A stretch of 64,000 nt of DNA. Origin: Trypanosoma brucei. Lineage: Eukaryota. A program made the translations under genes and the position numbers. Under the pieces are notes generated by a model. The model was given only the letters and a program-made list of their open reading frames with translations. It was not told where the DNA came from and searched no databases. The stretch's first letter is position 1. Every line of letters starts with the position of its first letter. Shown here piece after piece: positions 1,109 to 18,044 of the stretch. Where the stretch lies: assembly GCA_000002445.1 (NCBI GenBank), contig CM000208.1:1824001-1888000 (forward strand), read 5' to 3'.

Positions 1109-3592
1109 CTAGTTTTTCTGACAGTTGTACGCCTTCCAGCACGCACCGCAGTAAAGACCATCATCCGCAGATTTGTCGGATGCCTCCCACAGATCAGTGC
1201 CCGATGCACCGCATTCGCTACACGTCCCTTGACCTGCATGATTCCCACGCCGTACAGCATTCTTCCGTTTTTTTGAACCCTTGGACTTTTTGCGCTGCAC
1301 AGTCTCAGCACATCGGGTCTCCACCACAACCGGCGACTGCACTGTGATATTTTCCTCACTACCGGAAACTAAAAGGTCGTCAAGTAAAGTGCCATTCCGT
1401 ACAATTGATGGGATGGCATCCGCAACCCTCTCTAAGATCTCCTCCCGCGTCGTGCATCCCCGCGCCCGCGCGGCGGATACAGCTTCAGCGTGCATCAGAA
1501 AATTGTCGCGATCCTCCGCGGTTCGAAAGGCCCTCCCGCGTGCCAAAAAGTACACGCCAAGTAAACCAGCAGGAATATTAGCATCGGATACGCCGAGCGG
1601 ACCCGCTACCAACAATGCGTCATCGATGCTATGCATTTTTGAGCAGAGTAGGTGCCGCCGCGGTGCTTCACAGCTCTCCACATGGTCAGGGGGTTCTCCT
1701 TCTTGATTATTTGTTACTCCTTCAGCATCATCATCCCCCTCTTTGCTTTTATTGTTGAGAGTGGAGGCCATGTCAAGTAAGGTCTCCCAATTGTGGCTTG
1801 CTTCGTAGATAGCAACACAGTCTGCGCCTGCGCTATCTATCAACAACTGCCGTAACGCCGAAACAGTCACCGGTCGCAAATTGCGTAACTCCCCCTGCAC
1901 AGAAAGCCGGGTCACGTAGGCAGGCATCGTTTCCTCTGCAAACTTCTGCTCGTCAACGAGCAGCTGCTGAGGTCTGCCTGCTACAATTGACGCCAGCGCA
2001 CGCATAAACTGCACCTTCACAAAGGAAGCTTTGTCAGGGGATAGGTGACGGCCGAGGTTAAAGTTATCTTCGTACGGATCATCAATGCACAGACGGTACC
2101 AGACGCGATCGCGAAGGGGGCCGCACTTCACTTCATTAGCCTCCACCCAGCCAAGGGAATCAGGTGTTACCGGCGGCCCCCCTCCAGGGACCCGTAGCGT
2201 CACCACAACTTTGTCCCACCGAATCCTTGTATAGTACAAAAAAAACAAGGGAATCAAACCACCAAGCGCACCCCGCAACATCGTGAGTTCTGGAGACTTT
2301 AAAACATCACTAGGCCGTTCACCACCATCCCCATCATCGCGCAAAAGGGGTAAGTACGACATTTTCTGTTGTGACAAGTCTGGAATAGGCTCCACATCAG
2401 CCGGTCTAACGAACTTTACGAGCCCGTTCTCCAACAAGAAGTGCACCCACAAAATGGACATAGCGTAGGAAGTAAGATACCCATTCTTTGCATTGTTTAT
2501 ACCATACAACTTGCTCCATTTCTTCAGAAACAAATAACCAGTCCGTACAAAAGGATCCTGTTGAAAATACTTGCGAAGAAACAAGCTATTTCTCACTCCT
2601 TGTGCTCTACAACTTAAATCGAAGTCAAGTGAAAACATTTCAGGCAATTGTGAGCCAGTCTTCCATGAAACTTCCATGTCGCGTGGTCCACACATGGCCG
2701 AATTGCAGAAGAACTTTACTGCCTTCAAACTATCCTTAAAGTGAAACGTTACCGTATCACTGTCTTTTCGCTCAACCGTAGAGCTAATGGCCGCCTCGAC
2801 TAACATGCGGGGCGGAGAAGAAAACTCCTTACTGTTCGACCACACAACGCTGTACGTGTCGTGCTCACCATGTGAACGCAGTGGGACCCGAACCTTTTGA
2901 ACACGCCGCACAACGGGGACGCGGGTCCGCACAAGGGGCTCCAGCTCTCCAAAAAAGAAACCCGCCTTCCTCAGCGCCGCGGTGAGCCGAAGTATAACTT
3001 TTTTCTCGTCCTCGGGTGGCCATTTACCCTTCTTCATATCCTGCAGACCAATTGCGGTGAAATCAGCATCACTCACCCCGTCCCAACAACCACACGACAC
3101 GCAACTTCCAAAAGGAAATAACACTAAGTTGCGAACAAAACAAGAAATGACTTGGCTCATTTGAGAGAACGCACGCTCAATTACATCGAACGTCTTCCTG
3201 CCCATGTCAAGGGTTGCCGCGCTTTCCAACACAAAATTGCCACACGAGACAATGTGTCCAGAAGGAATGCATCCATAATGGAGCAGATTATCTTTACTCG
3301 CTAGAATCTCTCTGCACCAGAGAGAGAGCGCGGCATGGTGCACCTGAAAGTGTTCTTGGATTTGCTCCTCATCCCGGCTTTCTATCATTTTTGCACAAAG
3401 GTCACAACGGACACTCTGAGAGTTCCGACTCGTCAATTTTTCTTTTATTTGTTTTGTTGCGCCGTCTCCCTCACTATGTATGAGACAACCATCCAATAAC
3501 TTCTGCTCTGCCTCCTTCCACTCTTCATGAACACCACTGCTGTACACCACACCCGGAACTACAGTCGGAGCTACAGGCACCGATGTGAACAT
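1109..3592 (-). CDS. Cid1-family nucleotidyltransferase (terminal uridylyl transferase / non-canonical poly(A) polymerase) with N-terminal C2H2 zinc finger and C-terminal GATA-like C4 zinc finger
   Basis: The ORF track entry is 1109..3778, but the first ~62 codons run through a poly-T/UTR-like tract. The start is reassigned to the Met of MFTSVPVAP (rc ATG at 3592). The protein has a C2H2 finger (CDLCAKMIESRDEEQIQEHFQVHH), a pol-beta NT motif (FPFGSCVSCGCWDGVSDADFTAIG, i.e. G-S ... D-x-D) and an RVPVVR motif. It has a PAP/OAS1-associated domain (LFLKKWSKLYGINNAKNGYLTSYAMSILWVHFLLENG). The C-terminus is CSECGASGTDLWEASDKSADDGLYCGACW (C-x2-C-x17-C-x2-C). Confidence 0.8.
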   Translation of the reverse strand: MFTSVPVAPTVVPGVVYSSGVHEEWKEAEQKLLDGCLIHSEGDGATKQIKEKLTSRNSQSVRCDLCAKMIESRDEEQIQEHFQVHHAALSLWCREILASKDNLLHYGCIPSGHIVSCGNFVLESAATLDMGRKTFDVIERAFSQMSQVISCFVRNLVLFPFGSCVSCGCWDGVSDADFTAIGLQDMKKGKWPPEDEKKVILRLTAALRKAGFFFGELEPLVRTRVPVVRRVQKVRVPLRSHGEHDTYSVVWSNSKEFSSPPRMLVEAAISSTVERKDSDTVTFHFKDSLKAVKFFCNSAMCGPRDMEVSWKTGSQLPEMFSLDFDLSCRAQGVRNSLFLRKYFQQDPFVRTGYLFLKKWSKLYGINNAKNGYLTSYAMSILWVHFLLENGLVKFVRPADVEPIPDLSQQKMSYLPLLRDDGDGGERPSDVLKSPELTMLRGALGGLIPLFFLYYTRIRWDKVVVTLRVPGGGPPVTPDSLGWVEANEVKCGPLRDRVWYRLCIDDPYEDNFNLGRHLSPDKASFVKVQFMRALASIVAGRPQQLLVDEQKFAEETMPAYVTRLSVQGELRNLRPVTVSALRQLLIDSAGADCVAIYEASHNWETLLDMASTLNNKSKEGDDDAEGVTNNQEGEPPDHVESCEAPRRHLLCSKMHSIDDALLVAGPLGVSDANIPAGLLGVYFLARGRAFRTAEDRDNFLMHAEAVSAARARGCTTREEILERVADAIPSIVRNGTLLDDLLVSGSEENITVQSPVVVETRCAETVQRKKSKGSKKRKNAVRRGNHAGQGTCSECGASGTDLWEASDKSADDGLYCGACWKAYNCQKN

Positions 3593-4516
3593 GCAAGCTA
3601 AGGTACTTCTCGACCTTTGCGTTGGGCAGCTATCACCCGACAGAGAAGAAAAAAAAATACAACGAATTATAAAAATTACTTTGATGAAAGAGCGGAAAAA
3701 AAAAAAAGAGCACGGCATGAGGCGAATTGAGGGAGCTTTCAAGAACACGTGGTATCGTTTTTTAAAAAAAAATATCATATCCTGGTAAATGGGCTATGAT
3801 ACACAATTGAGTACAGATACAAAGGTGGTACATATACCTATCTTTCCCACTTAAAATCATTTCTTCCTTGCTTGCCACCACCAAAAGGCAAAACAAAGAG
3901 GCAACAGTAAACCACCTCCATCTTATTATAATCCACTTGCCCTGTGCCCTACTCAGCACCCCTTTAGGGATCACAGCAATAAGTGGCTGCGGATCACCTC
4001 CCTTCTCATGTACAGTCACATATCACACACATATACACACATACATACATACATTTGCATAATGAGATTCAATGATGCACGATCGCACAAAACTACACGG
4101 AATAAAGGAATATCCACAGTATGGAGAAAAATTAGTAGTAAACAGTAGCAGCGCCAGAAGTGGTACCGTTAGTAGCGGTCATGGAAAAAAAAAACAAGAC
4201 CCTGGAAAATGAGAAAAGAAGGGGGAAAAAATAGGTTAAAACACTTCAGAAAAAAATAGAATGTGGAACAAAGAAACAAAATCGCGAAGGCTAAAGACAA
4301 AATAACCAGGAAAATAATAAAAGACAGGGAAACGGGAAAATGTGAGCACTGAAGTGAAAACAAAGCGCACAACAAAGGTCAACGGAAGTTGTTGTTGAAA
4401 TGCCATGCGTCCCCACTTTCCCCTTCCACCAGCTACAACCCACGCACAAACACCTCTCCATCCTCCCTCCTTCCGCACACATGGTCGATTTCGCAAAAAC
4501 AGAGGGAACTTTTCCT

Positions 4517-5212
4517 TCAAGCTGTACTTGCGATAATTTTCCTCGGTGGCACGACGGAGGCACTGCTTTTGTTTGCCTCAGCTCCCGCACCGCACGTGGG
4601 AGGAGCGTCCAGCGCTATGCACGGCCGAAGTTTCTTCCCCTTAAAACCGGTAGCGGTGTCGGCAATGAGCCCCTGATATTCACCATTGACATAAAGCTGG
4701 ACGGCGCCCTCGTCGGTATTAACAAGAAACCCGAAGCGCGCGCCTGCCGAGGGAACTAACAACCGCCATAAACTCCTGACCTCCACACCATTCACCTCAA
4801 CGGCGCATGTCAGGCAGTTAAAGAGGCAGCAATTAGCTTCGGACAGCCGGCTATTTAAAGAGCTGCTCGGCTGCGCTGCATGCAGCTCAACGTCCCCCAA
4901 GTTAACATTCGAAAGAAATGCATCTTCCGTACACACACCGACTTTGCACCTCGTATCGCTTGTTTGGATCTCATAGAAATACTTCCCATGTCCTGCGGGC
5001 ATCTCTAAACCTCCAATGGCAGGTTGATATGATCCTAAACAACCAGAATGATACACGTGTGGACCGTCTAAAGTGTACGCCGGACCAGCGCGGACCCACT
5101 CAAACGTAACGCTATTGATTGAGTCCATACCGAAATTCTCAACTACCTTTATTCCCTCCTGTAATGCACCCCACCTTTTCCCTTCGTTTCTTCGCACTTC
5201 CTCACCAACCAC
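4517..5212 (-). CDS. SPRY/B30.2-domain protein
   Basis: 231-aa ORF with SPRY-like signatures (HGKYFYEIQTSD; LYVNGEYQGLIAD). Consistent minus-strand placement in the gene array. Confidence 0.55.
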   Translation of the reverse strand: MVGEEVRRNEGKRWGALQEGIKVVENFGMDSINSVTFEWVRAGPAYTLDGPHVYHSGCLGSYQPAIGGLEMPAGHGKYFYEIQTSDTRCKVGVCTEDAFLSNVNLGDVELHAAQPSSSLNSRLSEANCCLFNCLTCAVEVNGVEVRSLWRLLVPSAGARFGFLVNTDEGAVQLYVNGEYQGLIADTATGFKGKKLRPCIALDAPPTCGAGAEANKSSASVVPPRKIIASTA

Positions 5213-5566: not shown

Positions 5567-5980
5567 TTACTTCTTCTTTGTCTGCATCTTGCCCTTCGCC
5601 TTGCCACGAATCTTCTTGTTTCGGTTGCGGCGTTCCTTCACTGACTTACGAGCCGGAAGCTTCTTCTTACCCATACCCAAGCGAGCCTTACGGTAGTTGG
5701 GCTCAATGCGCTTCATGGCAGCAAGGTCATCATAGATAAGACCGAAACCAGTCGTTTTCCCGCCACCGAATTTCGTCTTGAAGCCAAAGACGGAAATTTG
5801 GTTCTCGTCAGCGACCTTGTAGAGCGACGCGAGGCGGTTGCGAATGAGTTTCGCGGGAACAGTGCCGCACCACCCGGGGTGGTTCACCTCAACAACGAAT
5901 TGCTTGCGGTTCAGCAGTTTGTTCACCTTGAACTGCGAGGTTCGCACCGTCACCTCTGCCTTCTTCTTCTGGAAGACCAT
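5567..5980 (-). CDS. RPS24: 40S ribosomal protein S24e, copy 1
   Basis: 137 aa. [22 protein letters not shown]...[10 protein letters not shown] aligns along its whole length with eukaryotic RPS24 (human [22 protein letters not shown]...KKVRGTAKA). Confidence 0.93.
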   Translation of the reverse strand: [137 protein letters not shown]

Positions 5981-7102: not shown

Positions 7103-10100
7103 TTAGCTTCGGCGGCCCAGTAAACCAGCTCCCATATCCTGCGTAATGGTGCGCACGGCCACATCGTTAAGTAATTTCTCCACCAAGTTCAGCAATGCGC
7201 TATTATTCCACGGTGGCAGGACACCCTGATCCTTGCACGGGGTTCCTGCCGTTGTAGTGAGCCGTTGTGTGACTCCTGTAGTGGGAGGCATGGCCTCAGT
7301 TGCGCCTGCTGCGCCTGAACCGGGGTCACTTGACTTGTTCGCCCCATATGTCGATGATGGAGGATCCCTCACAAAAGAGTTGGAGGCCATAGACACCAAC
7401 TCCCTGTATTGTGGAATCTCCTCTTTGATAGTCTCGGTGAATGCATTTCGAACCGGTGGGCAGTCGACAACAGTTCGCAACAGCCCTTCAAGCATCCTTC
7501 GCACAATTCTCACATTACCTCGAGTGAAATCTTTTATTGTTTGCTTGAGCCTATCTCCCACCAAAGATGCACTCTGAGGCCGTACGTAGTTCTCGTAGAG
7601 CGGGGGAAAGTACACCTGCCGGACCGCACACTCCCCGTAGAGCCGCTGGTACTCGTCGACGGGCATAATACGCGCCTGCACCAACACCTCAAGCGAGTGG
7701 GCCAAGACAGGTCCTTCATCTGCGCGTTTTTTTAGTGGTAGAGACATCGTGTTATGATCCGCAACACCAGAATGTAGAGCAGGTGCAGCTGCCGCGGAGA
7801 GCACACGAAGGCTCTGATACTCCGGCGGGGCCTCAATTACAGAGGGCCGCTTTTTACCCATGTAGGTGGCTCGACGCTTCGTGCAGGTGGACCTCTCGAA
7901 CCGCGTTTTCGTCTGTGGTTTGACGTCGAGCAACGGATCGGTATCATCTTCTTCATCGGCCTCTTCGTCCTCAGGAGCTGCTGCCGCTTCCACATACATT
8001 GGGCTCACACTCTTGTCCTCAATCAACGTCTCGTTGACTACACGGCAGAATATCGGGGCCTCGATAATTTGGCTGAGCTTGCCGCATTGTAGCGCAAGAA
8101 CGCACCGCACGCGCTGCCCAGGTCTCACCACGCCACTGTTCGGCGACACAGAAATTGTTGAGCTCCCCGGTTCTAGCGATGTAGCCCACGAAAAGCTGTA
8201 TGAAAATGAGTTGTGCCTGTTTTCAACATAACAAATTCGGCGGTGCAGCGAGAAGCGGGGCACCGCACCAATACGCATGACGTCGATGGAAAGGGAAACT
8301 GGGCAAAGCCTTGAAGGCAGACGCAACGAGGGCGAAACGGGGATGGGCAGGAAGGCATCATTAATCGTGTTACATGCTTCCCCAGTAGACGTCTTCTTTG
8401 GATGGTATCCGACACCGCAGAATCGCATACTGTATCCCTCACCATTCACGATCTGAAGGCCAACGTCAATCGTGTAGGTACGCACCTCGAGGGGGCGGAA
8501 ATACCAATGGAGCTGGGTTGATCCGCCGGGGGGAATAACACCCTCTGGATTCATACACTGAAACACGGGAACACCGCAGTTGGCCGCACAAACCTGCTCA
8601 ACAAGATCTTCCTGTACAACGTAAGTCATCGGATGCGACGAGGTGTTCTCAATTGTTGAGCTTTGCAACGGTGGCTCGACATCGCCGAGTGCTATGGGGT
8701 GTAACTGATAAACAGGTGGATGGTGAAAGGCGAGAGCGTGAGTGTTGTCCGCCACTGTGCGCCCCTCAAGGACCAGAAGAGCCTTCTTACCCTTGTCCAG
8801 CCGAAGCAAAACGGGCAAGCAGTGCGTGCCGACACTAACATGGCGGTACGTAATGGTGATAACGGCGTGGGAGTTCACGGGGATGGTCCCCTCTCGAGGA
8901 GAAATTTCCAACAAGCGGTTAGAAAGAATTTGCTGCACATCCTCCAACTCTTCATCTTCAACGAACCACGTCTCGTTCCCACCTTCGTGATCAATCGGGT
9001 ACCAGAACCGGAACGGGGCTGCACACGATCCAGCATTCTCAACGCACAGCATAATCTCCTTATCATCATCATCCACACAACCTACGCCGACATCCATGTA
9101 AATTGGCTCAACGCCCTGTACATACTGCGGGAAGGCGAATGAGTCCCTCTCTACGTCCACGCTCTGTACAGGGGCAGCAAGCACGTTATTAATGCTATTA
9201 ATAGCTAACTGGCACCACAACTGCGAGCGGTGCTGCTGTAACGAGCGTACGTCAGTGATCTGAACAGCCGGGCGTGTACCTTTCAAGCGAACCTCGCAGT
9301 GTGGGTGCTGTTGAACCTCGTGCAGGTTTGTGGGGCAAGCAATACTACTCAAATCTACCCCCCTGCCGCCAACGAGTGTGTACAAGATACAGTCAGTCAC
9401 GCCGGCCGGAGGCCGCAACGTAACAAGTACTACAGTGTGCGAGCGGGCGGCCAATGCTCCGCACCTGTTGTTACTGAGGTGAATCATTGGGGTGTCTTCA
9501 CCCTCCCAATTCATCCTCCTTGTTTTCGTGAGCCACCTCACCTCATAGCATACTTCACACACACTGCTGTTGTATATGGTCCACTCAAATGTTTTCTCCT
9601 GTGCGGCTGGACCCTCGTGCTCAATCACCACCGGTTCAACCTCAACTACAGATTGACGACCTTCACCCATAAAGGGGCAAGAGATGATGCGCTTGCCATC
9701 ACTTAAGCTCAGCTCTCTTGGTGTGTTGTTGCAACTGCTGCTTTGTGACTCCCGTTCCCGCCCAACCAAAGGATCAACAGCTCTCCGTGTTGCGTTTGAA
9801 CTCGGCTGTGTTTCATCATGTGTCGAAATTGAGAATGTTATATGCCCCTCATACAACACAGGATCTTGGGGGCAGAAGGAAACAACCAAATTCATCCCCA
9901 TCCCTGCTTGTAGGACGCCAACCGGTGGTTCCACAAACACTACACCCTGAAGTGGCTGTGAAGGAGATGACTCGAAGCTAATCGGTACGGTTGTTGGGTT
10001 CGTGATTCTCAACGACCGCTCCGTGACGCCTGTTACGCACGCGGGGCGCATTGTAATCATAGAGCTGTCCTCTACGAGAAGCTCTGGTCTAAACCCCTCA

Positions 10101-12508
10101 CCGTGCAGCACTATGCGGAGCTCGTCTTTAGGACTATTGCTCAACTGAACGAGCATCTCTCCACGCATCCACGCCGCGCCTTTGGCACTAAAAGAAAGCA
10201 TCAAAGGAACGCGACTACGTGCTGGTATTATGCCGTACACGGGGTTGCACCCGAAAACTGAATTTGATCCATGGCCGCTAATGGCATCACTTCCGCAATC
10301 CTTCCCTTTCGACTCTTGGCTCTCCAGACGTAGGGCGACCGCGAAGGAAACAATCACACCTCCACGATTCTCCAGTTCAATAACCGTGTGCGTGGTGCCG
10401 TCAACAAGGCACTTAGGAAAGACGATGTGCTTCGGTGCCCCCACACAGGAAACAATGCTTCCAGCCTCCGCATCGGAGCACTGAATAATCTGTTGGCAGT
10501 GCACGGTAAAGTAATGAGGAGGAGTGAAACTTCCCTCCTCGATTAAAAGGAAGGACTGCATCTGCTTGTAGTTTACATAGCACTCAAGATGCTGGTCGCG
10601 GAGTGAAGTGCCTGCTGCCCGCGACCGAGTAACGGTGAAGGTGCAGTAAGAGTGAGGCAATATATCTTCCTGCATGGGCGTCACGCTGAAACTGCAGTCG
10701 GCGGGGAGGCACCAGTACGCCGTCGCCACCGTGTTGCTCCGGTTGTACACGTTCACATATTGAGGTTCGTTCCTTGAATCCACAAAAACTAATGCCTCTG
10801 TGCTCAACACGAAGGGGGCGCCGGTGGAGAAAGACGAGTTCCACCGAGCGAAACTAATACGGCCCCCGCTCTTTTTGCGACAACCTCCCGTCACCAACTC
10901 ACTGGAGGTCGTCGGGTCACGATGAAGATCTCGCAGCATTGCCAAACTAGAGGTGGAAAGTAGATGCATCAACGTGTCGGGCACCTTGCCACCCCGCAGA
11001 ACCTTCGAAAGGAGGAACAAATCCTGCGGTTCAGATGCCCCAAGGCCGACCTCGTGACGCCAAAAAAACTCCTCCACCTCCTTCAACCCGAACGACATGG
11101 GGCGGATGCTGTCATCGTACGCAGAGCCAAATAAGTCGACGAAAACAACGTGTCTCGTGAGGTTCATGATAATGTGCAATCGCCGTAGATAATTCATCGG
11201 GTATGTAGGACAGAACTCCACCCACATCCGCTGGGTGCCTTTAGCAGGGAGTTCTCCGGTCGTCGGTGTTACAACAAATGACGCGCCTGGAGAAACACCA
11301 AGAACATAGAAGTTCACAGACACGTCTGAGAGGTTCTTGATGTAAAAAGAACGCCGCAATGCCCGGCGGTGCTCATAAACAACGATGTTCTTTTCCATCC
11401 GGATGTCACCAAAGTTCATGGAAGTCACTGAAGCAACCACAGTGGGCGCAACCACAACACCGCGCAGCAGCAACGTAACCGTGTTCCCAGCGAGTGCTTT
11501 TACGCACAGCTTGTCAGAAAAGGCAGCACCCACCGACGTCGCAGCGAAGGTAACTTTGAACTTCTGTGCCTTCCCCCGCGGAATAACACCGGTCCGCGGT
11601 GCGGCAGTAAAGGGGCATGAGAAGTCCTCCCTTTCCACCTCCAAACTGAACACCGCGTCAACCACTGAGGGATTTTCGACATCAAACTCCATAGTGTGCA
11701 CCTTACCAACGTATACGGTACCAAAATCTAACAAGAGACTCCTGCCATCCTGCAACAACTGCATCTCACGACCGCTGAGGCAGCTGTCGTCAGGGGTAGT
11801 TGAGCCGGTTACGGTGCTAGGCTCCTTCGACACGCGGATGAAGGGGTACTTGGCAACACCAGATATCTTTATTGTTGAGAGTAAAGAACCACACGCAGCC
11901 ATTTTGCACACCGCCTGAGCAATCAAAACACACGCCTCCGACGGCGTGAAAGTTATGCACAGGTCCACTGTTTCATTTTCCCGAAGCTCCCCGCTTGTGG
12001 GTGTAATGCCGAAGGGCGCCGGCACCTCCCATTCGTACGAGACGGTGGTGGTACCCACGTTCTTCATGGCGACGATTTCCCTCGCAGTGGTAGCGGTTGG
12101 AACATAGCCAAAGTCATGGTGTGGAGGCACTTCGACCCTCGCCGTCGGTATTTTCCCTTCCAATTTCACGAAAAAGCTACCCCGACCAACGACAGTCACC
12201 TCAAACATGTCACAAATATCAACAAGCTCCGTTGGGCGGAAAGATACTTTAATATCGGTGGCCATGCCACTGCTGAGTGTAACCGGATCGGGGAAATCCA
12301 TGATAAAAACTGTCTTTCGCAGCGGCAGTCGGTACACTATAGTTTGCTTTTTCATGTCTAAATTTCGTATCCGCAGCCTCTGGGTATATTCGCCGCCTGG
12401 CTCCCAGTGGCGCCATAGGAGTCGACCAACGCAATCAACGCCGAGCGTTCGCTTCCGCTGCTCCCGGCCATCTGGCTCAAAAGACATTTGACAACTAAAC
12501 AAAAGCAC
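7103..12508 (-). CDS. Large (1801 aa) ASH/MSP-domain repeat protein, flagellar/ciliary type (CFAP65 / CFAP74 / hydin-family-like)
   Basis: Single uninterrupted 5.4-kb ORF. Repeated beta-sandwich PapD/MSP-like segments with the pattern 'F.P..LDFG.V.VG......F.V.N....V.F...' occur many times (e.g. WEPGGEYTQRLRIRNLD..., LLLDFGTVYVGKVHTMEFDVENPS..., NFGDIRMEKNIVVYEHRRAL). Alternative start at 12487 (MSFEPDG). Family assignment is inference; size is in the CFAP65 range. Confidence 0.6.
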   Translation of the reverse strand: MLLFSCQMSFEPDGREQRKRTLGVDCVGRLLWRHWEPGGEYTQRLRIRNLDMKKQTIVYRLPLRKTVFIMDFPDPVTLSSGMATDIKVSFRPTELVDICDMFEVTVVGRGSFFVKLEGKIPTARVEVPPHHDFGYVPTATTAREIVAMKNVGTTTVSYEWEVPAPFGITPTSGELRENETVDLCITFTPSEACVLIAQAVCKMAACGSLLSTIKISGVAKYPFIRVSKEPSTVTGSTTPDDSCLSGREMQLLQDGRSLLLDFGTVYVGKVHTMEFDVENPSVVDAVFSLEVEREDFSCPFTAAPRTGVIPRGKAQKFKVTFAATSVGAAFSDKLCVKALAGNTVTLLLRGVVVAPTVVASVTSMNFGDIRMEKNIVVYEHRRALRRSFYIKNLSDVSVNFYVLGVSPGASFVVTPTTGELPAKGTQRMWVEFCPTYPMNYLRRLHIIMNLTRHVVFVDLFGSAYDDSIRPMSFGLKEVEEFFWRHEVGLGASEPQDLFLLSKVLRGGKVPDTLMHLLSTSSLAMLRDLHRDPTTSSELVTGGCRKKSGGRISFARWNSSFSTGAPFVLSTEALVFVDSRNEPQYVNVYNRSNTVATAYWCLPADCSFSVTPMQEDILPHSYCTFTVTRSRAAGTSLRDQHLECYVNYKQMQSFLLIEEGSFTPPHYFTVHCQQIIQCSDAEAGSIVSCVGAPKHIVFPKCLVDGTTHTVIELENRGGVIVSFAVALRLESQESKGKDCGSDAISGHGSNSVFGCNPVYGIIPARSRVPLMLSFSAKGAAWMRGEMLVQLSNSPKDELRIVLHGEGFRPELLVEDSSMITMRPACVTGVTERSLRITNPTTVPISFESSPSQPLQGVVFVEPPVGVLQAGMGMNLVVSFCPQDPVLYEGHITFSISTHDETQPSSNATRRAVDPLVGRERESQSSSCNNTPRELSLSDGKRIISCPFMGEGRQSVVEVEPVVIEHEGPAAQEKTFEWTIYNSSVCEVCYEVRWLTKTRRMNWEGEDTPMIHLSNNRCGALAARSHTVVLVTLRPPAGVTDCILYTLVGGRGVDLSSIACPTNLHEVQQHPHCEVRLKGTRPAVQITDVRSLQQHRSQLWCQLAINSINNVLAAPVQSVDVERDSFAFPQYVQGVEPIYMDVGVGCVDDDDKEIMLCVENAGSCAAPFRFWYPIDHEGGNETWFVEDEELEDVQQILSNRLLEISPREGTIPVNSHAVITITYRHVSVGTHCLPVLLRLDKGKKALLVLEGRTVADNTHALAFHHPPVYQLHPIALGDVEPPLQSSTIENTSSHPMTYVVQEDLVEQVCAANCGVPVFQCMNPEGVIPPGGSTQLHWYFRPLEVRTYTIDVGLQIVNGEGYSMRFCGVGYHPKKTSTGEACNTINDAFLPIPVSPSLRLPSRLCPVSLSIDVMRIGAVPRFSLHRRICYVENRHNSFSYSFSWATSLEPGSSTISVSPNSGVVRPGQRVRCVLALQCGKLSQIIEAPIFCRVVNETLIEDKSVSPMYVEAAAAPEDEEADEEDDTDPLLDVKPQTKTRFERSTCTKRRATYMGKKRPSVIEAPPEYQSLRVLSAAAAPALHSGVADHNTMSLPLKKRADEGPVLAHSLEVLVQARIMPVDEYQRLYGECAVRQVYFPPLYENYVRPQSASLVGDRLKQTIKDFTRGNVRIVRRMLEGLLRTVVDCPPVRNAFTETIKEEIPQYRELVSMASNSFVRDPPSSTYGANKSSDPGSGAAGATEAMPPTTGVTQRLTTTAGTPCKDQGVLPPWNNSALLNLVEKLLNDVAVRTITQDMGAGLLGRRS

Positions 12509-13424: not shown

Positions 13425-15419
13425 TCACTGAAGATACTTCGCACGCGCCAACAAAGCGAAGAATGCCAACACCATGTAAACCGCAACACTTGCTGCGCAC
13501 GCGACGATGTATTCCGGGAGTTCTTCCGGAAAATACCCCTGCAACCTTGCATACGTCGCGCCATCCGGAAAGCAGAAGGGCACCTTCGGCTCACACACGA
13601 ACTTCAAACCATCAAATTCGTTCACCACAAGCCCCGCTAGGCCGTAGCGCACAAACGAAACATATTTGAGCCAACGCCAAAAGAATGGAAGGCTCTGAGT
13701 GCCCATCAAGACACCCCCCGAGGGTAGAAGCAAAAGCACAAGCACCAACGGTGCCACAATGTTCGCCACTTGTATGTTTCTCGACAAGCTCGAGAGGAAT
13801 AAACAAAGAAAGTAGCTGTTCAGCACAACAAATGTGCACGTACAGGAAAAGAGGAGGAACTTACCCACACCCTGTTGCAGACCCATCGTGAAGTACACTA
13901 TAATGTCGAACAGGAGGTTTGTCACAACGGTTATCGGCACGTCCTGAACAATCTTCCCTATGTAGTACGCAAGCACACAATACATCCCGGCACGATGCTC
14001 TCTCACGAAAATAGCACGCTCCTCGATGAAAAGATTAAGGGTTGCTAGGCACGAAAGCGCTGTATTCATGGTTACAAAAAATAGCGAGCCCATTCGATTC
14101 CGAATAGACAGCTGATCGTTACCCAACTGAAAGTACACAGAGCCGATCACTGTCCCGAAAAATGCCGCTGCAACGATACGGGCCACCGCCGCGCTGGAAT
14201 CCCGTAGTTTGCTTAACACCGCACGCCACGCCACGACATAGATTTGTTTCGTGATGCCACGGTAATATGGTGACGGGTCTCCCCCTGGAAGACCATCATA
14301 TCCATAACTGCACCTTTCGTTGATGGCACCAATCTCACGCTCCACCACGGCGAGCAGTGAAGTGTGGAAGGCGGTGACAATGCCGGAGCACGTTCGTGAC
14401 ATGGCTAAAGCACAGTTTTGACCTACACCACTTTTAAAAAACTCCTCACTTGGTGGCAGAGCCACAGCGTCCAGTAAAACATCTGCTGGATTGTCCAGCT
14501 GCGGCGGCGCGACGCCTACACCCTCGAGGAATCGCATGACTGCACTCGCGGGCCCGAAGTACGCCTGCTCACCTGACCCGGTTAACAGCAGCAACTTGTC
14601 AAACAGCTGGAATATGCTTTTGCGTGGCTGATGAATTGAAAAGACAACAGCAACACCACCAGCTGCTATCTCCTTAAGGACAGTAAGGAGATGTTGGGCA
14701 GTAAAGGTGTCAAGGCCTGTGGTTGGTTCGTCAAGGAATAAAATGGATGGCTGGGACACCAGCTCCATGGCGATCGCGCAGCGCTTCTTTTCTCCCCCGC
14801 TGATTCCACGGACCATCTGCGACCCAATTCGTGAGTTCTGTACGTGATCGATGCCCAGAAGTCGCATGACACGCTGAATGTGTGTTTCCAGCACACTGCG
14901 TGTGAACGACGGCGGAGTGCGCAGCTGGGCGGCGTATGAAATGCTTTCTTTCACAGTCAAATAAGGCCAAAGCAGGTCTTCCTGCTGTACGTACGCACTG
15001 ATGCGGCGAAACGATCCCAGGTGAATTGGGTGCCCCTGCAACAGCACCTCACCACCTATAGTCCCACTCTTTTGTCTTTGCGCCATTATGTCAAGAAGCG
15101 TCGACTTACCGGCACCAGACGGACCGAGCAAGGCAAGCAACTCACCACCTCTCACATAGCCCGAGATACCGCGTAAAATTTCTTTTGGCCTCCCTTTGTC
15201 ACCTTGGACAGTGTATGTGATATTTCTAAACGTTAAGGCCACAGGCTTCTCTGGCCCCAATGAAGCGGGGTCTTCTTGCTTTGGGCCCTTAACTAGAAAA
15301 GAGGTCTCCTCTTCTTCGGCATCTGTAAACTGTGTGAAACAAGGAGAGCTGCCATTGCCCTCCATTGGACCCGTCCTTACTGCTGGTGCAAAAACTTCGA
15401 GCAAGTTAATGAAATGCAT
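13425..15419 (-). CDS. ABC transporter, ABCG (white/half-transporter) family: N-terminal NBD followed by 6-TM domain
   Basis: Walker A GPSGAGKSTLLD, ABC signature ISGGEKKRCAIAMEL, Walker B ILFLDEPTTGLD, then a hydrophobic C-terminal half. NBD-then-TMD order is diagnostic of ABCG. Confidence 0.88.
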   Translation of the reverse strand: MHFINLLEVFAPAVRTGPMEGNGSSPCFTQFTDAEEEETSFLVKGPKQEDPASLGPEKPVALTFRNITYTVQGDKGRPKEILRGISGYVRGGELLALLGPSGAGKSTLLDIMAQRQKSGTIGGEVLLQGHPIHLGSFRRISAYVQQEDLLWPYLTVKESISYAAQLRTPPSFTRSVLETHIQRVMRLLGIDHVQNSRIGSQMVRGISGGEKKRCAIAMELVSQPSILFLDEPTTGLDTFTAQHLLTVLKEIAAGGVAVVFSIHQPRKSIFQLFDKLLLLTGSGEQAYFGPASAVMRFLEGVGVAPPQLDNPADVLLDAVALPPSEEFFKSGVGQNCALAMSRTCSGIVTAFHTSLLAVVEREIGAINERCSYGYDGLPGGDPSPYYRGITKQIYVVAWRAVLSKLRDSSAAVARIVAAAFFGTVIGSVYFQLGNDQLSIRNRMGSLFFVTMNTALSCLATLNLFIEERAIFVREHRAGMYCVLAYYIGKIVQDVPITVVTNLLFDIIVYFTMGLQQGVGKFLLFSCTCTFVVLNSYFLCLFLSSLSRNIQVANIVAPLVLVLLLLPSGGVLMGTQSLPFFWRWLKYVSFVRYGLAGLVVNEFDGLKFVCEPKVPFCFPDGATYARLQGYFPEELPEYIVACAASVAVYMVLAFFALLARAKYLQ

Positions 15420-15887: not shown

Positions 15888-18044
15888 TCAAACTTCAGCG
15901 ACGACAGCATAAGCGTTTAACCTCCTTATTATAAGGCCGGCATCCAGAAGCTGCTGAATCACCGAACTTAAACACATTCCAATATGATGTTCTCCACCCA
16001 TTCGCTCAAAAAGACACCTCACAACCTCTTCAGGCACTGCTGAGCCATTACACGCCCGCTGTTCAGCCAACATCTGGCGCAACAGCACAAGGCAAGCGGC
16101 CTTTTTTCCTACCCTTTTTCGCTTGTGTGCACCAGCAGCGGAACGTGATGCGGGACCATAGACCGGTCCTTCCGATACGAAGTGATCTAGTGAGCTCAAA
16201 CCAGCTGAGGTCGTGGCAACGGACACGGCTGACTGGAGAGTCGTGGACGAAGCTGAAGCAGCCGTATCCGCAGTCCACAGGTGATGTTTGTAACACAACC
16301 AGACCTCCTCCGCAAGGGTTTCGTTCCATCCAGCGACACAGGCACGACGACAATCGCCGCTCTGAGCTTCAGCCTCAACATTGCAAATCCCGTTGAGTAT
16401 GAGCCGTGCAATGTTTAACTCCCATAGCACTACCAAATGTGAGCCGAAGGTCTTTTCGCATTCGGTGACCCCGTATTGGCACCGCTCGGAAAGACGGCTA
16501 AGGTAAAACGCTGTGAATTCGTTAACAGGAATGGCCGCCTCCAAGGATGCGGCACACGGCGCCTCCTTCACAATGATGTGAAGTGTTGCGCTGCTTAACG
16601 GTCCGTGGCACATCGAGACCCTGCTGCTACCTAATGAGGTAGAGCGAGACCGAGGTGCCGACTTCGACTGCGAGCGGGCCACGGAAGCAGCAATAACCTC
16701 ATCGCCGACTAACGCAGCGTTCTGTAACAGCAAGTTGGCGGTGGTGCGAGCCACAAGAGTAAACTGCGGTACGATAGCCGCGATGCCGAGGTTGTCATCA
16801 TTGGAAGCAGCGGTAATCTGAGCACGGGTACGGACCACCCCACCACGCAGGGTGGCAGCCCCACCAGTACCGCTGCCGCCTCCACTGTTTATGGGACACA
16901 GGCCACATAGGAGGCCTCCCACATGATTCGTGAAAGCACCGCTGCCGTTGGCAGGCAACTCATCGATGACGAGTGAGTCCACCGCGGAAACCGCACCAGC
17001 CATAAGAAGTTGCTGATGCACGTGTGGGTACGCTGCAGTGATAGCCTGCGAAGCAACTGTGGATCGCTGCCCTCCGCGCATAACGTGGGCACCAACAAGT
17101 GTGGCGCAGGAGCCTAAAAAGTGAAGAAAAGCGCGCAAAAGCGCCGACTTCCCCGAACGGGAGGGACCGAGTAGTAACAAGTGAAGAGGCCGCCGACTGC
17201 GGCAACGAAGTGAACGATATATCGTGTGTGTGGCGACAAGAAGAAGCATCGACTTGCACAATTCTTGACCCGCAATCTCTGGAGCAAATGCTCTCGTAAG
17301 CTGTTTAAAAGTAAGAGGTGGCGTAGCCGACACAAGGGAGAATGGGTCCCTAGTCACTTCGGCGGTTGCTAGCATTGGCCGCATCACCCACTCCACATCG
17401 CTACATCGTTCAGTGTTGTGAATAACGTAAGCAGTACTTCCATCATCCATACTGCTTGCATACATAACGGCGCATAGTACATCCCCCAGGCGCATCTGCG
17501 TACCAACATCACCATAGGCCCATGCGGAGAAATGCCGCATGCTGTCCAGCAGCTGTATGACGAAGTGTGTGCGGCTGCAGAGAGCAGGTTGAAGTCGCTC
17601 AGTTGATGATGACACAAAATCTGTACCACGCCAACCAAGCTGAACAATGTCCGTCGTAGTAGGCAGAAGACGCAACGCGACGACTCGTATGGGACGTCGA
17701 TGCAGCACACCATGGATGTCAGAACCATGCGGCAACCTGGGAAAGGGCGAAGAGGAGGTTGCGCTGATTAGAAACGCACATTCCGAAAAACTATAAACAT
17801 TTTCAAAGGAAGAAGCCAAGCACCGAAGGTAATACAGCGCTAGCGGTTCGTCCTGTAGATTCCAGACTCTCTTTTCCCAAGTAGCACACAACGATGGTGG
17901 TGCTGGCGGCCCGTCTTGCAACAAGTTGAGCAAATCTGTGTACGTTAATCCGCCAACACCAGAATTTTTCTTAGAAAAATCGTGCTGCTGAAGCCATTCC
18001 CTCACGTAGCGCATCCATTCTCCCGCCAAACAGTCAACTGCCAT
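15888..18044 (-). CDS. Divergent MCM-like AAA+ P-loop protein (possibly MCM-binding-protein-like or degenerate MCM paralogue)
   Basis: 718 aa. P-loop LLLGPSRSGKSALLRAF. Downstream LMAGAVSAVDSLVIDELPANG resembles the MCM LEAGALVLAD.GVCCIDEFDK Walker-B region, and PQFTLV resembles the MCM SRFDL arginine-finger region. Catalytic residues look degenerate. Confidence 0.4.
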   Translation of the reverse strand: MAVDCLAGEWMRYVREWLQQHDFSKKNSGVGGLTYTDLLNLLQDGPPAPPSLCATWEKRVWNLQDEPLALYYLRCLASSFENVYSFSECAFLISATSSSPFPRLPHGSDIHGVLHRRPIRVVALRLLPTTTDIVQLGWRGTDFVSSSTERLQPALCSRTHFVIQLLDSMRHFSAWAYGDVGTQMRLGDVLCAVMYASSMDDGSTAYVIHNTERCSDVEWVMRPMLATAEVTRDPFSLVSATPPLTFKQLTRAFAPEIAGQELCKSMLLLVATHTIYRSLRCRSRRPLHLLLLGPSRSGKSALLRAFLHFLGSCATLVGAHVMRGGQRSTVASQAITAAYPHVHQQLLMAGAVSAVDSLVIDELPANGSGAFTNHVGGLLCGLCPINSGGGSGTGGAATLRGGVVRTRAQITAASNDDNLGIAAIVPQFTLVARTTANLLLQNAALVGDEVIAASVARSQSKSAPRSRSTSLGSSRVSMCHGPLSSATLHIIVKEAPCAASLEAAIPVNEFTAFYLSRLSERCQYGVTECEKTFGSHLVVLWELNIARLILNGICNVEAEAQSGDCRRACVAGWNETLAEEVWLCYKHHLWTADTAASASSTTLQSAVSVATTSAGLSSLDHFVSEGPVYGPASRSAAGAHKRKRVGKKAACLVLLRQMLAEQRACNGSAVPEEVVRCLFERMGGEHHIGMCLSSVIQQLLDAGLIIRRLNAYAVVAEV

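What the first reader, a model, noticed from the sequence alone, without database searches (positions are those of the whole stretch)
1109..3592. Cid1-family nucleotidyltransferase with C2H2 plus GATA-type zinc fingers
The catalytic core is unambiguous (GS...DxD, RVPVVR, PAP-associated domain). It is flanked by an N-terminal C2H2 finger, as in kinetoplastid RET1/TUT3-type TUTases. The extreme C-terminus is a C-x2-C-x17-C-x2-C module (CSECGASGTDLWEASDKSADDGLYCGACW). Its spacing and its T.LW core are those of GATA-type zinc fingers (C-x2-C-x17-C-x2-C, TPLWRR). I am not aware of a described terminal nucleotidyltransferase with a GATA-type finger. The finger could be a nucleic-acid-targeting module or a degenerate zinc ribbon. 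No obvious mitochondrial presequence, so a cytoplasmic or nuclear RNA-tailing role is plausible.
Basis: partly seen in the sequence, partly recalled or inferred. Interest (0 to 1): 0.55.

Follow-up and report, generated by a model that had tools for sequence, protein, structure and literature searches.

The report
Known trypanosome TUT3 with unannotated zinc finger
The gene is the already known cytosolic RNA uridylyltransferase TUT3 of Trypanosoma brucei, and its last 45 residues are a real, strongly conserved four-cysteine zinc finger that no database family covers and that looks like GATA and LIM fingers but is not a GATA DNA-binding domain.

Summary
The 827-aa ORF at 1109-3592 (minus strand) is real. 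It is 99% identical to T. b. gambiense "terminal uridylyltransferase 3", so it is TbTUT3 (Tb927.10.7310), a known cytosolic, processive TUTase that binds 4EIP. The catalytic core and the N-terminal C2H2 finger align with the RET1 crystal structure (E 3e-61), and all catalytic and UTP-contacting residues are conserved.

The C-terminal Cys4 cluster is also real. Its spacing is C-x2-C-x20-C-x2-C, not x17. The Thr of the "T.LW" motif is specific to T. brucei. The four Cys plus W802, D810, G812, Y814 and W819 are invariant or nearly so in 13 orthologues, out to bodonids.

The same module occurs elsewhere in Euglenozoa and in a dinoflagellate. One protein carries four copies fused to a 2H phosphoesterase.

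I read it as a GATA/LIM-like adaptor finger of an undescribed family. Interest is modest.

The parts
1109..3592 (-). Coding sequence of TbTUT3 (827 aa plus stop)
   Evidence: ORF. 99% identity over 100% of its length to T. b. gambiense 'terminal uridylyltransferase 3'. Best solved relative is T. brucei RET1, 5hzd, E 2.9e-61.
3593..3778 (-). Upstream in-frame ORF extension; most likely 5' UTR and trans-splice acceptor region, not coding
   Evidence: Long polypyrimidine tracts followed by AG. The extension translates to Phe/Ile-rich low complexity. The gambiense model starts at the ATG at 3592.
3335..3406 (-). N-terminal C2H2 zinc finger (C63, C66, H81, H86), RET1 type
   Evidence: All four ligands are invariant in 13 orthologues. 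It aligns with the zinc finger of RET1 in 5hzd. [quoted passage not shown]
3062..3109 (-). Pol-beta-type nucleotidyltransferase motif G162-S163 ... D175-A-D177 (two catalytic Asp)
   Evidence: Regex on the protein. Aligns with RET1 D310 and D312 (residue numbers from PMC5159558). Invariant.
2645..2902 (-). Insertion within the catalytic domain (residues about 231-316), at the position of the RET1 'middle' RRM-like domain
   Evidence: Aligned at low similarity with the corresponding stretch of 5hzd. The RRM-like fold is known for RET1 (PMC5159558). For TUT3 it is an inference.
2612..2626 (-). DFDLS motif with the third catalytic Asp (D325)
   Evidence: Aligns with RET1 D473, the residue mutated in 5ido. 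F324 and D325 are invariant.
2063..2266 (-). PAP-associated domain (residues 443-510), including the nucleotide recognition motif IDDPYEDNFN (residues 503-512, window 2057-2086)
   Evidence: Pfam PF03828, E 2.3e-5, 25 bits, above the cut-off. D505 and E508 align with RET1 D654 and E657; N335, T374 and Y376 align with RET1 N483, T522 and Y524 (PMC5159558). All are invariant.
1370..1642 (-). Conserved helical domain of the C-terminal extension (residues about 651-741)
1268..1345 (-). Predicted disordered linker (residues about 750-775); its last six residues (KKSKGS) begin a Lys/Arg-rich stretch (KKSKGSKKRKNAVRR, residues 770-784) that runs on to the finger
   Evidence: pLDDT is below 50 for fragment residues 119-144. 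No conserved columns, and length is variable among orthologues.
1115..1249 (-). C-terminal zinc-finger domain (residues 782-826): strand, CxxC knuckle, strand, short strand, then a helix that starts at the second CxxC
   Evidence: AlphaFold2 models of the 196-aa and 53-aa fragments give the same topology with pLDDT about 85-94. Profile search finds the module in 36 representative proteins at E<1e-3.
1136..1222 (-). Cys4 core C791-x2-C794-x20-C815-x2-C818-W819
   Evidence: Read directly from the sequence. All four Cys, D810, G812, Y814 and W819 are invariant, and W802 is conserved in at least 90% of sequences.

Best explanation
The locus encodes TbTUT3 (Tb927.10.7310), the cytosolic, processive terminal uridylyltransferase of T. 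brucei and a paralogue of the mitochondrial editing enzyme RET1. The enzyme part works as in RET1. A C2H2 finger buttresses the fold. Three Asp (D175, D177, D325) bind the catalytic metals. N335, T374, Y376, D505 and E508 select UTP. After the PAP-associated domain comes a TUT3-specific extension: a conserved helical domain, a disordered linker, and at the very C-terminus a single-zinc Cys4 finger of treble-clef topology.

This finger is an autonomous, mobile module of a family not covered by Pfam. Its consensus is G-x-C-x2-C-x6-8-W-P-[ST]-x-D-x3-D-x-G-x-Y-C-x2-C-W-x2-[YFW]. It belongs to the GATA/LIM-like structural class, but it is not a GATA DNA-binding domain.

Most likely (inferred, not shown) it is an adaptor that docks TUT3 onto its partner or target ribonucleoprotein, for example the 4EIP-EIF4E1 complex, rather than a general nucleic-acid clamp.
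For: Identity: 99% to annotated TUT3. RET1 structure match at E 3e-61, with all catalytic and UTP-binding residues conserved (residue roles from PMC5159558). Published data show TUT3 is a highly processive TUTase, is cytosolic, and binds 4EIP directly in yeast two-hybrid (PMC8608314, citing Aphasizhev 2004).

Finger is real: ligands and five further residues are invariant or nearly so across kinetoplastids, in proteins only 28-39% identical overall. AlphaFold2 gives a confident beta-hairpin plus helix.

Autonomous module: a profile search of 1.84 billion representatives finds it in other architectures.
- Four copies plus an AKAP7-type 2H phosphoesterase (P0015).
- Four copies in Apiculatamorpha (P0027).
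- Two copies plus a weak, sub-threshold PDZ match in a diplonemid (P0029).
- One copy in a dinoflagellate (P0031).
- One copy plus CCHC knuckles (P0040).

Class: 8 of 11 PDB sequence hits are GATA fingers. hhalign gives GATA 79%, LIM C-terminal half 70% and ArfGAP finger 45%, against 6% for the TFIIB ribbon and 0.7% for ZZ.

Adaptor rather than DNA or backbone binder: mean net charge is -0.5 (T. brucei -4), against +6.6 for GATA fingers. There is no C-terminal tail. A disordered tether precedes the finger.
Against: No experiment or computation here shows what the finger binds. The fusion partners elsewhere (2H phosphoesterase, CCHC knuckles) and the basic stretch just upstream in T. brucei would fit RNA binding as well. 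In RET1 the C-terminal extension raises processivity, apparently through RNA binding (PMC5159558).

All similarity to GATA and LIM is below significance thresholds in database searches (E 0.3 at best). Cys-rich profiles are prone to spurious matches.

Confidence: 0.65

Rival explanations
1. The C-terminal finger is an RNA-binding module. It holds the substrate RNA or selects its 3' end and contributes to the high processivity of TUT3, as the first reader suggested ('nucleic-acid-targeting module').
For: The module is fused elsewhere to RNA-end enzymes and RNA-binding knuckles: a 2H phosphoesterase in P0015 and CCHC knuckles in P0040. It occurs in tandem arrays of 2-4 copies, as many RNA-binding fingers do. 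Aromatic residues are conserved (W802, Y814, W819, Y822). A Lys/Arg-rich stretch lies immediately upstream in T. brucei. Removing the C-terminal extension of the paralogue RET1 reduces processivity (PMC5159558).
Against: The finger is acidic to neutral (T. brucei -4, mean -0.5). The basic upstream stretch is not conserved. The conserved aromatics sit where GATA and LIM fingers have core residues, so they may be structural. No known RNA-binding finger family matches.
Confidence: 0.3
2. The finger is only a structural zinc cap that stabilises the C-terminal extension or the enzyme fold, with no ligand of its own.
For: Nearly all conserved positions are zinc ligands, turn residues (D-x-G) or core-type aromatics, and surface positions vary freely. 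The N-terminal C2H2 finger of RET1 turned out to be mainly structural (PMC5159558).
Against: It is joined to the rest of the protein by a roughly 26-residue low-confidence linker. It folds confidently on its own. It occurs as independent repeats on long low-complexity spacers and in proteins with unrelated partner domains. That pattern fits an autonomous interaction module, not a cap. The topology is treble clef, not zinc ribbon (TFIIB ribbon control 6%).
Confidence: 0.15
3. The finger is a true GATA-type DNA-binding domain, giving TUT3 a nuclear, DNA- or chromatin-directed role.
For: C-x2-C ... C-x2-C with a Trp after the first knuckle. GATA fingers are the top PDB sequence hits and the best hhalign match. 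AreA superposes at 1.8 A over 34 residues.
Against: Pfam GATA is far below its cut-off, and only 2 of 13 orthologues match at E<1. The DNA-contacting residues (the Leu and Arg residues of TPLWRR, the Asn of CNAC, the GLY motif) and the basic tail are missing, because the protein ends 8 residues after W819. Net charge is -4. LIM scores equally well. TUT3 is cytosolic (PMC8608314).
Confidence: 0.03

Closest known systems
T. brucei TUT3 (Tb927.10.7310; Aphasizhev et al. 2004 FEBS Lett 572:15; Falk et al. 2021, PMC8608314)
   Same: It is this gene: 99% identical to the T. b. gambiense orthologue over the full length. Reported as cytosolic, processive and 4EIP-binding.
   Different: Nothing differs apart from a few substitutions between strains. 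The C-terminal finger is not mentioned in the papers I could read. The 2004 paper is not held, so I cannot exclude that it noted the Cys cluster.
T. brucei RET1 (KRET1), crystal structures 5hzd, 5i49 and 5ido (PMC5159558)
   Same: C2H2 finger, connecting helix, split catalytic domain with an inserted middle domain, PAP-associated domain, and identical catalytic and UTP-contact residues. E 3e-61 over residues 62-537.
   Different: RET1 is mitochondrial. Its C-terminal 699-976 region is predicted to be flexible and no finger is described there. TUT3 instead has a folded helical domain plus the terminal Cys4 finger.
GATA-type zinc fingers (Pfam PF00320; e.g. GATA-1, AreA)
   Same: Single zinc, four Cys, with the CxxC knuckle in a beta-hairpin and the second CxxC at the start of a helix. 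Trp after the first knuckle and Gly before the second pair. Best sequence-level match among solved structures.
   Different: Spacer of 18-20 residues in TUT3 (12-20 elsewhere) instead of 17-18. TPLWRR, CNACGL and the basic tail are absent. Acidic or neutral charge. Below the Pfam threshold. An invariant D-x-G-x-Y-C-x2-C-W signature that GATA lacks.
C-terminal (CCCC) zinc module of LIM domains
   Same: Same structural class. Shares the '[DG]-x-x-Y-C-x2-C-[YW]-x2-[FY]' ending. hhalign 70%, P 4e-5. LIM modules are protein-interaction modules of near-neutral charge.
   Different: LIM domains always pair two zinc modules, whereas this is a single module. There is no conserved Trp hairpin in LIM. 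Only one LIM chain appears in the PDB sequence search, at E 6.
Metazoan TUT4/TUT7 (ZCCHC11/ZCCHC6) and their accessory fingers
   Same: Cytoplasmic TUTases whose catalytic module is flanked by zinc fingers (C2H2, CCHC) that mediate partner- or RNA-dependent targeting (background summarised in PMC5159558).
   Different: Different finger types and positions. No homology outside the catalytic module.

Membership tests
Cid1 / non-canonical poly(A) polymerase / TUTase family (Pol-beta nucleotidyltransferases) | hG[GS]-x9-13-Dh[DE]h motif with two metal-binding Asp | tested here: met
   G162-S163...D175-A-D177, aligned with RET1 D310 and D312. Invariant in orthologues.
Cid1 / non-canonical poly(A) polymerase / TUTase family (Pol-beta nucleotidyltransferases) | Third catalytic carboxylate on a later strand of the palm | tested here: met
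   D325 in DFDLS aligns with RET1 D473. Invariant.
Cid1 / non-canonical poly(A) polymerase / TUTase family (Pol-beta nucleotidyltransferases) | PAP-associated domain (PF03828) above the Pfam gathering score | tested here: met
   25.0 bits against 22.6, E 2.3e-5, residues 443-510. The palm model PF22600 is just below its cut-off (22.3 against 27), but the RET1 match at E 3e-61 covers it.
Kinetoplastid TUTases (UTP-specific) | UTP-contacting residues: Asn and Tyr that bind and stack on uracil, and Asp and Glu of the nucleotide recognition motif | tested here: met
   N335, T374, Y376, D505 and E508 align with RET1 N483, T522, Y524, D654 and E657 (roles from PMC5159558). All are invariant.
Kinetoplastid TUTases (UTP-specific) | Uridylyltransferase activity in vitro | not testable with these tools
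   Reported for TUT3 by Aphasizhev et al. 2004, as cited in PMC8608314. The primary paper is not held.
TUT3 orthologue group | Near-identity to the annotated TUT3 and the shared architecture: C2H2, core, helical extension, terminal Cys4 | tested here: met
   99% identity and 100% coverage to T. b. gambiense TUT3. Orthologues are named TUT3 in T. conorhini, T. rangeli and T. theileri. The architecture is shared by 13 aligned sequences.
RET1-type N-terminal C2H2 finger | C-x2-C-x12-14-H-x3-4-H immediately upstream of the catalytic domain, aligned with the RET1 finger | tested here: met
   C63, C66, H81 and H86 are invariant. Aligned with RET1 residues in 5hzd. Generic Pfam C2H2 models are only sub-threshold.
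GATA-type zinc finger (PF00320) | Score above the Pfam gathering threshold | tested here: not met
   No hit with the full-length protein. 14.9-15.6 bits against 26.8 with the isolated C-terminus. Only 2 of 13 orthologues match at E<1.
GATA-type zinc finger (PF00320) | C-x2-C-x17/18-C-x2-C spacing | tested here: not met
   x20 in T. brucei, 18-20 in orthologues, 12-20 in other carriers. From my own knowledge, a plant subgroup of GATA factors has x20, so spacing alone is not decisive.
GATA-type zinc finger (PF00320) | Signature residues T-P-L-W-R-R and C-N-A-C-G-L, plus a basic C-terminal tail that contacts DNA | tested here: not met
   Only the Trp is conserved. The family consensus is V-W-P-[ST] and Y-C-x2-C-W. 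The protein ends 8 residues after W819. Net charge is -4, against +6.6 for GATA fingers.
GATA-type zinc finger (PF00320) | Treble-clef fold superposable on GATA fingers | tested here: inconclusive
   [not shown]
GATA/LIM-like treble-clef class (structural class, not a sequence family) | Profile-profile similarity to GATA and LIM modules exceeding that to unrelated Cys4 modules | tested here: met
   hhalign gives GATA 79% (P 1.6e-5), LIM C-terminal half 70% (P 4e-5), ArfGAP 45%, TFIIB ribbon 6% and ZZ 0.7%. 8 of 11 PDB sequence hits are GATA.

The most novel reading that the evidence does not exclude
The terminal Cys4 finger defines an undescribed mobile zinc-finger family, centred on Euglenozoa with outliers in dinoflagellates. 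It marks cytoplasmic RNA 3'-end enzymes (TUT3, an AKAP7-type 2H phosphoesterase) and small multi-finger proteins, and it targets them to one shared ligand. That ligand could be a scaffold protein such as 4EIP or a particular RNA-end structure. If so, the finger would be the handle for finding the still unknown substrates of TUT3.
Probability: 0.3. Interest if true: 0.5.

Novelty: new variant of a known kind. Interest (0 to 1): 0.3.

Why it matters
TUT3 is the only non-mitochondrial processive TUTase of trypanosomes. It could not be deleted in differentiation-competent bloodstream forms, and its RNA targets are unknown (PMC8608314). Its last 45 residues are a conserved, separately folded module on a flexible tether that recurs in other RNA-end enzymes. 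That gives a concrete handle: delete or mutate the finger, or use it as bait, to learn how the enzyme is directed to its targets. For annotation, the module merits its own domain family. For the scan, the result is mainly corrective. The gene is known, and the 'GATA-type' label overstates a resemblance that holds at the level of structural class.

Tried and rejected
1. GATA membership: tested with Pfam on the full protein, on the isolated C-terminus and on 13 orthologue fingers. Rejected.
2. Other Pfam assignments for the finger: DUF7573 (18.7 bits against 30.2, T. brucei only), zf_Tbcl_2, CEBP_ZZ, DUF4428 and Zn_ribbon_8. All are sub-threshold and inconsistent between orthologues, so none was accepted.
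3. The search for homologous proteins with the C-terminal region alignment (A3) and with the finger alignment (A9) both returned nothing, and A4 was too short for the tool. The word-index search does not suit these queries. The exhaustive representative search did the job instead.
5. The afdb50 library was unavailable. Foldseek against the PDB with the finger model was uninformative.
6. The upstream ATG at 3778 as the true start: rejected, because the extra codons are polypyrimidine tracts.
7. The primary TUT3 paper (PMID 15304317) and two reviews could not be read. Searches for 'TbTUT3' and for 'GATA-like' with 'TUTase' found nothing.
8. The window holds no second copy of the module (six-frame regex).
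Full report
**Observation**

The region 1109-3592 holds one long ORF on the minus strand. The stop codon TAG is at 1109-1111. The ORF runs upstream to an ATG at 3778, but the extra 62 codons are translated polypyrimidine tracts followed by AG dinucleotides. That is what a trypanosome trans-splice acceptor region looks like. All 21 other ORFs of at least 200 aa, bar one that lies antisense inside a longer minus-strand ORF, are on the same strand. G+C is about 50%. Both fit a kinetoplastid polycistronic unit.

**Identity**

The 827-aa product is 99% identical over its full length to "terminal uridylyltransferase 3, putative" of T. brucei gambiense. It is 37-42% identical to proteins named TUT3 in T. 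conorhini, T. rangeli and T. theileri, and about 30% identical to bodonid and metagenomic relatives, including one from Neobodo designis. It is therefore TbTUT3, Tb927.10.7310.

Falk et al. (PMC8608314) summarise what is known:
- It is a highly processive TUTase (their citation of Aphasizhev et al. 2004).
- It is cytosolic by GFP and myc tagging and by digitonin fractionation.
- It is dispensable in Lister 427 cells, but could not be deleted in differentiation-competent bloodstream forms.
- Its RNA targets are unknown.

**Enzyme part**

The best solved relative is the RET1 catalytic core (5hzd and 5ido), at E 3e-61 over residues 62-537. Using the residue roles given in the RET1 structure paper (PMC5159558), the alignment gives these equivalences:

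| RET1 residue | TUT3 residue | Role in RET1 |
|---|---|---|
| D310, D312, D473 | D175, D177, D325 | metal-binding triad |
| N483 | N335 | hydrogen bond to the base |
| T522, Y524 | T374, Y376 | water-mediated contact; stacking on uracil |
| D654, E657 | D505, E508 | nucleotide recognition motif |

All of these are invariant in an alignment of 13 orthologues. Pfam reports PAP_assoc above threshold, and the MTPAP-like palm model just below it.

The N-terminal C2H2 finger (C63, C66, H81, H86) is invariant and aligns with the RET1 finger. In RET1 that finger is indispensable for folding of the core but contributes little to uridylation of single-stranded RNA (PMC5159558).

**The C-terminal finger: what is really there**

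The spacer is 20 residues, not 17. Among TUT3 orthologues it is 18-20.

Conservation is striking. In proteins that share only 28-39% identity overall, C791, C794, D810, G812, Y814, C815, C818 and W819 are invariant, and W802 is nearly so. The preceding linker has no conserved column and varies greatly in length. The family has [VIL]-W-P-[ST] at that position.

AlphaFold2 on the last 196 residues, with 13 sequences, gives three segments:
- A confident helical domain, pLDDT above 90, residues about 651-741.
- A low-confidence linker, residues about 750-775.
- A confident finger, pLDDT 91-94.

The finger alone folds the same way: a strand, the CxxC knuckle, a strand, a short strand, and a helix that begins at the second CxxC. 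This is the treble-clef arrangement. Zinc binding itself is inferred.

**Is it a GATA finger?**

*Sequence models.* Pfam GATA does not hit the full protein. On the isolated C-terminus it scores 15 bits against a gathering score of 26.8, and only 2 of 13 orthologue fingers match at E<1. The other sub-threshold hits scatter over DUF7573, zf_Tbcl_2, CEBP_ZZ and zinc ribbons.

*Family profile against solved structures.* A profile of 39 fingers was searched against all PDB sequences at E<10. It returned 11 chains, 8 of them GATA fingers aligned end to end (GATA-1, -2, -3, AreA, plant GATA18). The best E-value was only 0.33.

| Reference alignment | hhalign probability | P-value |
|---|---|---|
| GATA fingers | 79% | 1.6e-5 |
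| LIM C-terminal CCCC module | 70% | 4e-5 |
| ArfGAP finger | 45% | 2e-4 |
| TFIIB zinc ribbon (control) | 6% | 0.006 |
| ZZ domain (control) | 0.7% | 0.084 |

*Features that make a GATA finger bind DNA.* These are absent: the Leu and Arg residues of TPLWRR, the Asn of CNAC, the GLY motif and the basic tail. The protein ends 8 residues after W819. The net charge of the module is -4 in T. brucei and averages -0.5 in the family. My GATA reference set averages +6.6, or +2.8 for the core alone. The LIM and ArfGAP modules are near neutral.

My conclusion is that the module belongs to the GATA/LIM-like treble-clef class. GATA fingers are its nearest sequence relatives with solved structures. It is not a member of the GATA family and is very unlikely to bind DNA.

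**A mobile module**

I searched the finger profile exhaustively against 1.84 billion representative proteins. It found 36 proteins at E<1e-3 and 14 at E<1e-10.

Most are TUT3-like enzymes with the finger at the extreme C-terminus. In several more divergent TUT3-like sequences, whose taxa I did not look up, the hairpin Trp is replaced by Tyr or Phe.

The others have different architectures:
- P0015, the top hit (E 3e-29), has four nearly identical fingers on 150-residue low-complexity repeats. These are followed by an AKAP7-type 2H phosphoesterase domain (Pfam E 2e-17, with HITL and HLTV motifs). It lies on a 54-kb metagenomic contig with densely packed genes, the annotated ones on one strand.
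- P0027, from the prokinetoplastid Apiculatamorpha spiralis, has four fingers.
- P0029, from the diplonemid Namystynia karyoxenos, has two fingers and weak, sub-threshold PDZ matches.
- P0031, from the dinoflagellate Biecheleria cincta, has one finger.
- P0040 has one finger plus two CCHC knuckles.
- Several short proteins have one finger.

No Pfam family covers the finger in any of them. The module is therefore autonomous and, as far as these libraries go, unnamed.

**How it most likely works**

Shown or firmly inferred by homology: the gene encodes a UTP-specific, RET1-like TUTase core stabilised by a C2H2 finger.

Inferred: the C-terminal finger sits on a flexible tether and acts as an adaptor. 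I favour docking onto a protein or ribonucleoprotein partner over backbone-type nucleic-acid binding, at about 0.4 of the total. My reasons are these:
- The module is acidic or neutral.
- Its closest analogues of similar charge, LIM modules and the GATA N-finger, are protein-interaction modules (this is from general knowledge).
- TUT3 has a direct protein partner, 4EIP.

RNA binding remains a serious rival, at about 0.3. The fusion partners elsewhere are RNA-end enzymes and CCHC knuckles, the module forms arrays, and the C-terminal extension of the paralogue RET1 raises processivity (PMC5159558). A purely structural role, at about 0.15, fits the conservation pattern but not the tether or the independent repeats. 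A true GATA DNA-binding role is effectively excluded.

**Comparison and novelty**

The gene and its enzymology are already known. I found no description of the finger in the literature I could search. The RET1 paper even calls the C2H2 finger RET1-specific and does not discuss TUT3.

Accessory zinc fingers on TUTases are a familiar theme, as in TUT4/7 and RET1, so this is a variant of a known kind. It is a TUTase carrying a terminal treble-clef finger of an unnamed family. It is useful for annotation and as an experimental handle on TUT3 targeting, but it is not a surprise for specialists.

I score interest at 0.3. The most novel reading still open is that this is a Euglenozoa-centred targeting domain shared by RNA 3'-end enzymes. 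I give that a probability of about 0.3 and an interest of 0.5 if true.

Noticed in passing
L001:3001-5664 (ENA metagenome contig ERZ21831265:ctg78217l), protein P0015: An 887-aa protein with four near-identical copies of the TUT3-type finger on 150-residue low-complexity repeats, fused to an AKAP7-type 2H phosphoesterase domain (HITL and HLTV motifs). It was the top hit of the finger profile (E 3e-29). The annotated neighbours (PDI-like, aquaporin, MSP-domain protein) are on the same strand, which suggests a kinetoplastid-like genome.
   Followed up: partly
proteins P0027, P0029, P0031, P0036, P0040 (one search hits): The finger module also occurs in a prokinetoplastid (four copies), a diplonemid (two copies plus a weak PDZ match) and a dinoflagellate (one copy after an unknown domain, repeated in P0036), and next to two CCHC knuckles. 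No Pfam family covers it.
   Followed up: partly
[not shown]
   Followed up: partly
window 3593-3778 (-): The mechanical ORF extends 62 codons upstream of the real start through long polypyrimidine tracts. This is probably the trans-splice acceptor region and 5' UTR rather than coding sequence.
   Followed up: yes
window 4517-5212 (-): A 231-aa ORF between TUT3 and the S24e gene has no Pfam match at E<1e-3. I did not look at it further.
   Followed up: no
window 5567-5980, 7103-12508, 13425-15419, 15888-18044 (all -): Neighbouring genes on the same strand: ribosomal protein S24e (E 1e-30), a 1801-aa CFAP65-like flagellar protein with many Ig-like domains, an ABCG-type half transporter, and a protein with weak MCM/AAA matches. 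This is an ordinary trypanosome polycistron with no evident functional link to TUT3.
   Followed up: partly
P0005 (T. melophagium TUT3 orthologue), residues about 960-1035: This is the only orthologue in which the finger is not terminal. About 75 extra residues end in a hydrophobic stretch, which looks like a gene-model or read-through artefact.
   Followed up: no
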